A stretch of DNA of 64,000 bases from Antedon mediterranea (lineage: Eukaryota > Animalia > Echinodermata). A program made the translations under genes and the position numbers. Numbering within the stretch: position 1 is the first letter of the stretch; each line of letters opens with the position of its first letter. Below the pieces are notes generated by a model that saw only the letters and a program-made list of their open reading frames with translations, did no database searches and was not told where the DNA came from. The stretch lies in the NCBI RefSeq assembly GCF_964355755.1, contig NC_092671.1, positions 29,084,104-29,148,103 of the forward strand, written 5' to 3'. Of this stretch, positions 4,704-4,745 are shown piece after piece.

Positions 4704-4745
<42 letters not shown>
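4704..4745 (+). repeat. 42-bp perfect copy of 28S 3324-3365 (H69 / R2 target site) in the IGS
   Basis: AGCGCGGGTAAACGGCGGGAGTAACTATGACTCTCTTAAGGT is identical to 3324-3365. Confidence 0.97.

What the first reader, a model, noticed from the sequence alone, without database searches (positions are those of the whole stretch)
4704..4745. Every IGS carries a perfect 42-bp copy of the 28S R2-retrotransposon / I-PpoI target site: candidate decoy site
Seen: AGCGCGGGTAAACGGCGGGAGTAACTATGACTCTCTTAAGGT matches 28S 3324-3365 at 42/42 in the same orientation. It lies ~220 bp after the 28S end in all six complete spacers (4704, 14186, 24739, 35265, 44756, 54579), and the flanks are unrelated to 28S. Established: this is 28S helix 69 and the adjacent TTAAGG^TAGC site cut by R2 non-LTR retrotransposons. 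It overlaps the I-PpoI site CTCTCTTAAGGTAGC, and R2 protein recognises mainly the ~40 bp upstream of the nick. The copy spans about -41 to +1 of the cut, keeping the upstream recognition region and losing the downstream half. Inference: a perfect copy inside a fast-evolving spacer suggests selection or continuing gene conversion. It could be a host decoy that binds R2/endonuclease or diverts insertions outside the mature 28S, a binding site for a host factor (termination or fork barrier), or an H69 hairpin mimic in the 3'ETS RNA. I cannot confirm whether it has been described.
Basis: partly seen in the sequence, partly recalled or inferred. Interest (0 to 1): 0.9.

Follow-up and report, generated by a model that had tools for sequence, protein, structure and literature searches.

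The report
Retrotransposon landing-site copy in rDNA spacer
All six complete spacers between the ribosomal RNA genes in this window carry an exact 42-base copy of the site where the R2 jumping gene lands; it is likely a scar of a past R2 cut that spread with the repeats and is predicted to remain a usable landing site, but no benefit to the host is shown.

Summary
Confirmed: 42/42 identity between 28S 3324-3365 and spacer 4704-4745, in 6 of 6 complete spacers; none by chance; next-longest spacer/gene match 12 nt. In R2 numbering the copy spans -41..+1 and holds every sequence determinant mapped for R2 proteins (RUM 13/13, RASIN 7/7). It is therefore a predicted complete target, not a dead half-site. 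The I-PpoI site is broken (12/15). The right end sits on the R2 nick and is followed by a 7-nt repeat of the cut-site core, like an R2 junction scar. No R2 body, ribozyme partner or Pfam domain was found. Selection is not shown: the flanks are as uniform as the copy, and 0/41 changes allows up to 7% drift. Conservation in relatives and R2 presence in this genome stay untested. Best reading (0.55): an R2-made scar fixed by concerted evolution. Decoy or safe harbour: 0.22. The scan noted similar, arrayed spacer copies in two other animal genomes (unchecked notes); searches found no paper describing this.

The parts
4704..4745 (+). Spacer copy of 28S positions -41..+1 relative to the R2 bottom-strand nick (unit 1); contains RUM (-34..-22), RASIN (-6..+1) and the helix-69 hairpin (4720-4738)
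   Evidence: motif limits from PMC10499050 passages
3324..3365 (+). Donor stretch in the 28S gene (3' side of helix 68, helix 69, R2 nick between 3364 and 3365; helix names recalled)
4746..4760 (+). 15-nt junction segment; holds a second copy of the 7 nt 4740-4746 at 4752-4758; inferred cut-and-repair or non-templated scar
   Evidence: (background 11 of 1118 positions; 187 of 200000 shuffles)
4761..4788 (+). T27-28 run, the only T run over 13 nt in the unit; candidate Pol I release tract, or the tail of an antisense poly(A) RNA (one AATAAA on the minus strand at 4794-4799)
   Evidence: both roles untested
4653..4703 (+). Upstream flank, pyrimidine-rich towards the copy; a homologue lies on a low-depth contig of related run X4 in another upstream context
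   Evidence: record 13: 4 other letters and an 11-nt insertion over 64 nt
4599..4652 (+). 9-nt tandem array, 6-10 copies depending on the unit; also present in runs X1, X4, X10 and X12
14186..14227 (+). Spacer copy, unit 2
24739..24780 (+). Spacer copy, unit 3
35265..35306 (+). Spacer copy, unit 4
44756..44797 (+). Spacer copy, unit 5
54579..54620 (+). Spacer copy, unit 6

Best explanation
The spacer carries an exact copy of the upstream R2 target that is likely a scar left by one past R2 cut or insertion event, likely spread to every unit by the usual homogenisation of ribosomal repeats, and predicted to remain a site that R2 protein can bind and nick. Shown: the copy, its limits (-41..+1), the intact RUM and RASIN at native spacing, the short repeat at the right junction, and no recognisable R2 body. 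Inferred steps: (1) R2 machinery cut a 28S gene, so that sequence copied from it ran off at the nick; (2) that piece became joined into the 3' spacer, either as the 28S leader or duplication of an off-site R2 insertion whose body was later deleted, or as a templated insertion during break repair; (3) unequal exchange and gene conversion fixed the unit in this array; (4) too little time has passed for it to decay. It needs no host function. As a side effect it would double the R2 sites per unit, and an insertion there would leave the 28S gene intact.
For: The right end lies at the R2 nick; a randomly placed 42-mer would end within 2 nt of it with p about 0.0014 for 28S alone (computed after the fact, and about tenfold higher by my estimate if other known insertion sites count). 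R2 5' junctions typically end 28S sequence at position 0 and add non-templated or duplicated 28S bases (PMC2718515 passages). R2 makes 21-28 nt duplications of upstream 28S, one with 113 nt more (PMC3774820 part 2). The 7-nt repeat at 4740-4746/4752-4758 is rare in the background (11 of 1118 positions; 187 of 200000 shuffles). No sign of selection is needed: the flanks are as uniform as the copy (1 of 327 columns variable; 28S 4 of 3684), 0 of 41 changes allows up to 7% divergence, and spacer subrepeats differ by 0-10%. In run X4, a homologue of the upstream flank differs at 4 of 64 letters plus one insertion, a level at which an unchanged 41-mer is unremarkable (p 0.08-0.29). R2 occurs in echinoderms and most animal phyla.
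Against: The left end (-41) lies beyond the reported ribozyme leader range of 9-36 nt, yet matches the upstream limit of R2 protein binding (-40). That fits trimming by selection better than a leader. The last matched base (+1) is the one whose change abolishes R2Bm nicking; a junction would be expected to stop at 0, although a 1-nt chance match is common. No R2 remnant was found: no 7-bp Watson-Crick P1 partner in the 250 nt downstream (best 5 of 7) and no Pfam hit in 7 of the 29 spacer frames tested. All 7 28S genes in the window are uninterrupted (3684 nt), and no genome is held, so R2 in this species is not shown. Similar spacer copies noted in two other animals (unchecked scan notes) could mean repeated selection.
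Confidence: 0.55

Rival explanations
1. Selected safe harbour or decoy. The host keeps a complete R2 recognition block in the 3' spacer so that R2 protein binds, nicks or inserts there rather than in 28S. An element inserted there would probably still be co-transcribed by Pol I (it lies upstream of the T run) and would keep the -28/-36 leader its ribozyme needs, so both sides could gain.
For: Both limits match the union of mapped R2 determinants: -40..-21 (20/20), -38..-7 (32/32), RUM 13/13, RASIN 7/7; identity stops right after +1 (0 of 4 at +2..+5) (PMC10499050; PMC11204384). A-clade N-terminal domains bind only the upstream half. Scan notes report arrayed spacer copies in a fish and another animal, one said to have been used as a landing site (not checked by me).
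Against: No evidence of constraint. One copy per unit could at best halve hits on 28S. The 4 nt after the nick that avian R2 templates pair with are changed (0 of 4). No R2 insertion at any of 6 spacer copies or 7 28S sites in the window. In X4, two homologous flank contigs run on for 229 and 380 letters; if these contigs break at shared 31-mers, neither carries a perfect copy there (my inference; low-depth contigs, perhaps orphans).
Confidence: 0.22
2. A duplication unrelated to R2: a deletion that joined a 3' spacer to a short piece of the next unit's 28S, or a scar of another element that targets the same region, possibly an antisense poly(A) element whose tail is the T run.
For: No R2 sequence is attached. 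The T28 run has a minus-strand AATAAA beside it, the only one in spacer 1. Scan notes describe antisense R2-like elements at this 28S region in other genomes (unchecked).
Against: The end falls on the R2 nick (p about 0.001-0.01, and my estimate). The T run is 15 nt away from the nick, and only about 25 nt of unique sequence follow it before the spacer repeats begin.
Confidence: 0.1
3. Binding site of a Pol I termination or fork-barrier protein (Myb type), working with the T run.
For: The copy lies 223-258 nt after the 28S end, 15 nt before the only long T run. An 8-nt word of the copy also occurs at 4585-4592 in the 3' spacer and resembles the yeast Reb1 core (recalled, no call).
Against: The same sequence in the same orientation sits inside every 28S gene, where a block would be harmful. 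A factor would need about 10-18 bp, not 42. Some 8-mer of the copy recurring within 220 nt has roughly a 1 in 10 chance (my estimate). In yeast the T-rich release element lies upstream of the protein site (recalled).
Confidence: 0.08
4. RNA-level mimic: helix 69 in the 3' ETS recruits a processing or modification factor.
For: The helix-69 hairpin is predicted to form in spacer context (pair probabilities 0.86-0.94).
Against: The hairpin covers 19 of the 42 nt; the copy extends 16 nt before and 7 nt after it, to limits that match a DNA target. The region folds no better than shuffles (z 0.69, 148 of 200 shuffles as good). Transcription of the site is not shown.
Confidence: 0.04

Closest known systems
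Canonical R2 target in 28S rDNA: RUM -34..-22 plus RASIN -6..+1 (Wilkinson et al. 2023, PMC10499050, 11 passages seen; Lee et al. 2024, PMC11204384, 12 passages seen)
   Same: Identical sequence and spacing over -41..+1.
   Different: Lies in the 3' spacer, not in 28S; +2..+5 all differ; no downstream half-site (5 of 16 identical at +6..+21), which D-clade N-terminal domains also bind.
28S duplications and leaders at R2 5' junctions (Eickbush, Burke and Eickbush 2013, PMC3774820, parts 1-2 of 7 and 12 passages seen; Stage and Eickbush 2009, PMC2718515, 12 passages seen)
   Same: Upstream 28S sequence that stops at the nick and is followed by extra bases.
   Different: 41-42 nt instead of the usual 9-36; not in tandem with the target; no R2 ribozyme or body follows; fixed in all six spacers of the window.
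Transposon remnants fixed in rDNA spacers (Hepialus humuli, PMC10257491, 12 passages seen; PMC10319768 and PMC10946416, 12 passages each)
   Same: A non-autonomous relic carried by every unit through hitch-hiking.
   Different: The relic is the element's target rather than the element.
I-PpoI homing site
   Same: 12 of 15 positions.
   Different: The last three positions differ; no such intron in any of the 7 28S genes of the window.

Membership tests
R2 target site (RUM-RASIN) | RUM at -34..-22 | tested here: met
   13 of 13 identical to 28S (definition)
R2 target site (RUM-RASIN) | RASIN at -6..+1 with the essential +1 base, native distance from RUM | tested here: met
   7 of 7, ungapped
R2 target site (RUM-RASIN) | A-clade ZF3-2 requirement -40..-21 | tested here: met
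   20 of 20
R2 target site (RUM-RASIN) | Bases +2..+5 (single changes tolerated by R2Bm; pair with the template 3' end in avian R2) | tested here: not met
   0 of 4 identical; the effect of four changes together is not given in the passages seen
R2 target site (RUM-RASIN) | Actually nicked or used by an R2 protein | not testable with these tools
   No genome held; no insertion at 6 spacer or 7 28S sites in the window
R2 5' junction leader or duplication | 28S identity ends at or next to the nick, followed by extra bases | tested here: met
   Ends at +1; 15-nt segment with a 7-nt repeat
R2 5' junction leader or duplication | Length equal to a ribozyme cleavage position, 9-36 nt | tested here: not met
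   41 nt upstream of the nick (40 if the first base is chance); range
R2 element or SIDE | HDV-like ribozyme with a P1 partner downstream of the leader | tested here: not met
   Best 5 of 7 Watson-Crick pairs for five start positions in 250 nt; crude test
R2 element or SIDE | RT/RLE coding remnant | tested here: inconclusive
   0 Pfam families at E 0.01 in 7 of 29 stop-to-stop frames of spacer 1; a short decayed piece would be missed
I-PpoI homing site | 15-bp recognition sequence | tested here: not met
   12 of 15
Pol I terminator | T-rich release tract downstream of 28S | tested here: met
   T27-28 at 4761-4788 in 6 of 6 spacers
Pol I terminator | Bound terminator protein and mapped transcript 3' ends | not testable with these tools
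   Only contigs were available for related runs

The most novel reading that the evidence does not exclude
Animals repeatedly keep complete R2 recognition blocks in the 3' rDNA spacer as a safe harbour: R2 binds and inserts there, is still transcribed by Pol I and cut free by its ribozyme using the copied 28S leader, and the 28S gene stays intact. This would be a host-encoded target decoy against, or a truce with, a site-specific retrotransposon.
Probability: 0.2. Interest if true: 0.85.

Novelty: new variant of a known kind. Interest (0 to 1): 0.5.

Why it matters
How R2 persists in rDNA without destroying it is an open question (PMC13580325, section 7). A second complete target in every unit, outside the mature rRNA, gives a direct test: count R2 junctions at the spacer and 28S sites in long reads, and compare decay in sister species. 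If selected, it would be a target decoy for a eukaryotic retrotransposon, and a natural model for R2-based gene insertion that spares 28S. If neutral, it still shows that R2 activity writes sequence into spacers, and it warns that primers or on-target counts anchored only upstream of the R2 site will also pick up spacer copies.

Tried and rejected
No genome is held, so R2 families, orphan copies and spacer insertions could not be sought. Sequencing runs: 24 listed, best share 0.79, close to the 28S part of the query (about 0.81), so no run clearly holds this spacer. Contigs of 4 of the 24 runs were laid on 4260-4703. No long 28S-bearing contig was laid in any run, and X1, X10 and X12 left 4482-4598 and 4653-4703 uncovered. 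The tool states that such holes prove nothing, so conservation of the copy is untested, and the copy and the 28S R2 site themselves were not examined in reads. Degenerate 28S continuation in the flanks: downstream 293 of 2000 shuffles as good; upstream anchored score 0; rejected. Uniformity across units as evidence of selection: rejected. RNA fold stability: not above shuffles. Rfam at gathering level: rRNA only, 21 matches. Pfam: 0 families in 7 of 29 frames. Assembly artefact: the flanks are unique and no two of the 6 units are identical; unlikely. Literature: searches (13 papers; 6; 0 papers with decoy, target site, R2 retrotransposon and rDNA) gave no title or abstract on an R2 target copy in a spacer. 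Term look-ups in PMC5035012 and PMC13188248 found 'spacer' 0 times, and bioRxiv 2026.06.09.731232 had none of five terms. One search for the 9-nt repeat gave nothing relevant in the 15 listed of 330. Figures and supplements were not seen; the junction figure of PMC5035012 (sea urchin R2 ends) and the sequence files of PMC13188248 could bear on the origin of the flanks. Scan look-ups by sequence, genome and echinoderm words were empty; one search returned two unrelated protist notes.

Full report
Setting. The window is a tandem array of eukaryotic rDNA: seven 28S genes (3684 nt), six complete 18S genes (1805 nt) and 5.8S genes. Spacers are 3226-4324 nt and units 9455-10553 nt; no two of the six units are identical. 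The 18S looks echinoderm-like to me; that label is recalled and comes from no call. No genome is held.

Observation. The 42-mer is found 13 times, all exact and on the + strand: seven in 28S and six in spacers, with none in 100 shuffles. The next-longest exact match between spacer 1 and any gene or ITS is 12 nt. The copy starts 223-258 nt after the 28S end. The order of parts is: 117 nt of unique 3' spacer, a 9-nt tandem array of 6-10 copies (4599-4652), 51 nt that become pyrimidine-rich, the copy (4704-4745), 15 nt, a run of 27-28 T (4761-4788), then 5-nt microsatellite arrays alternating with a 185-nt subrepeat.

What the copy contains. With the R2 bottom-strand nick as origin it spans -41..+1. 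Wilkinson et al. (PMC10499050, 11 passages) define two motifs for R2Bm, RUM (-34..-22) and RASIN (-6..+1). They report that mutating +6..+37 leaves nicking and TPRT at wild-type level, that changing +1 abolishes cleavage, and that single changes at other RASIN positions except -6, -5 and -3 are tolerated. Lee et al. (PMC11204384, 12 passages) report that A-clade N-terminal domains bind only the upstream half, with a requirement at -40..-21, while D-clade domains bind both halves. The copy matches 13/13, 7/7 and 20/20 of these, and 0/4 at +2..+5. So it is not a crippled half-site. It is predicted to be bound by both clades and nicked at least by an R2Bm-like protein; four adjacent changes at +2..+5 were not tested in the passages I saw, and the species' own R2 is unknown. 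The I-PpoI site is matched at 12 of 15.

The junctions. The right end is on the nick. For a randomly placed 42-mer of 28S, ending within 2 nt of it has p about 0.0014 (after the fact, and about ten times higher if other known insertion sites are allowed, my estimate). The 7 nt at 4740-4746 recur at 4752-4758; such near repeats occur at 11 of 1118 background positions, and 187 of 200000 shuffles reproduce it. At the left end, 4702-4706 equal 28S -1..+4, three of the five bases being shared with -41..-39, as in a head-to-tail junction; only two bases are extra, about 1 in 16. A longer gapped likeness of the flanks to 28S is not significant. R2 junctions are known to stop 28S at position 0 and to add non-templated or duplicated bases (PMC2718515, 12 passages). 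They also duplicate 21-28 nt of upstream 28S and carry leaders of 9-36 nt (PMC3774820, parts 1-2 and 12 passages). The copy resembles these but is longer, is not in tandem with a target, and has no ribozyme partner (best 5 of 7 pairs) or coding remnant (0 Pfam families in 7 of 29 frames).

Is it selected? Not shown. Across units the 3' spacer around the copy has 1 variable column of 327, the promoter and 5' ETS 2 of 645, 28S 4 of 3684 and 18S 4 of 1805, so zero changes in 42 nt is expected from homogenisation alone. Zero differences from 28S in 41 nt allows up to 7% divergence, and subrepeats within one spacer differ by 0-10%. The test in relatives could not be completed. Of 24 runs listed, four were laid on the 28S end and upstream flank. 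Run X4 has a 333-nt contig (depth 13.5) that matches 4640-4703 with 4 other letters and an 11-nt insertion, has a different upstream neighbour, and continues 229 letters past 4703. It also has a 423-nt contig (depth 45.8) that matches 4465-4507 and continues 380 letters; its first 30 loose letters look by eye like a roughly 80% diverged 3' spacer. If such contigs break at 31-mers shared with high-copy 28S, neither carries a perfect copy at that place. This is my inference, the contigs are low-depth and may be orphans, and 11 pieces were not shown, so it is a weak hint against deep conservation. All four runs hold the 9-nt array.

Mechanism. Most likely (0.55) an R2 cut in a 28S gene produced a piece that ends at the nick, which was joined into the 3' spacer as the leader or duplication of an off-site insertion that later lost its body, or as a templated repair insertion. 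The unit then spread through the array and has not yet decayed. These steps are inferred. The main result against this is that the left end, -41, fits the protein footprint better than any reported leader, and the match includes the essential +1. That keeps a selected decoy or safe harbour alive (0.22). Against a decoy: one copy per unit can at best halve hits on 28S, and no insertion is seen at 6 spacer or 7 28S sites. An R2-independent origin (0.10), a terminator site (0.08) and a helix-69 RNA mimic (0.04) fit less well; the hairpin is predicted to form (0.86-0.94), but the region folds no better than shuffles.

Novelty. Searches returned no title or abstract describing an R2 target copy in an rDNA spacer, and two surveys of R2 distribution do not use the word spacer. 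A review lists element insertions in spacers but, in the 12 of 16 passages seen, no target copies. The library lacks most subscription papers, and figures and supplements were not seen. This scan has noted the same kind of feature in two other animal genomes, as arrays rather than single copies (e1-7814042, e1-9176058). I had the fossil-junction reading at 50% before opening them and could not check their claims. Off-rDNA R2 copies with 28S leaders are also noted (e1-8030535). If those notes hold, the feature recurs in unrelated animals, which either R2's junction habits or selection could cause.

Verdict. Real and tied to the R2 site by position; probably a young scar that is still a potential target; function untested. 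New variant of a known kind, interest 0.5; the safe-harbour reading has probability 0.2 and would deserve 0.85.

Noticed in passing
window 4986-7253 (and each later spacer): A 185-nt subrepeat occurs 7-10 times per spacer (49 hits in 6 spacers), separated by 5-nt microsatellite arrays. The last copy (7069-7253, 91% identical to the first) runs into a TA-rich stretch followed by G's at 7260-7274 that looks like a Pol I start site (recalled pattern), so the subrepeats are probably duplicated promoter-upstream or enhancer elements.
   Followed up: partly
window 4599-4652; runs X1, X4, X10, X12: The 9-nt tandem array varies from 6 to 10 copies between units and is held by all four related runs, at very high depth in X4 (single contigs at 14000-16750). 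With the 51 nt after it, it could be the repeat-tailed 3' end of a retroposon lying on the minus strand.
   Followed up: partly
window 4817-4979 and later arrays: The 5-nt spacer microsatellite is the reverse complement of 28S +1..+5, the bases right after the R2 nick. Probably a coincidence: the orientation is opposite to what slippage on the TPRT primer would leave.
   Followed up: no
window 10253-31358: Units 2 and 3 have the same length (10553) and spacer layout, with 10 subrepeats, but are not identical: a recent unit duplication.
   Followed up: partly
window 4585-4592: An 8-nt word shared with the copy also lies in the unique 3' spacer; it resembles the yeast Reb1 core (recalled). Within chance.
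   Followed up: partly
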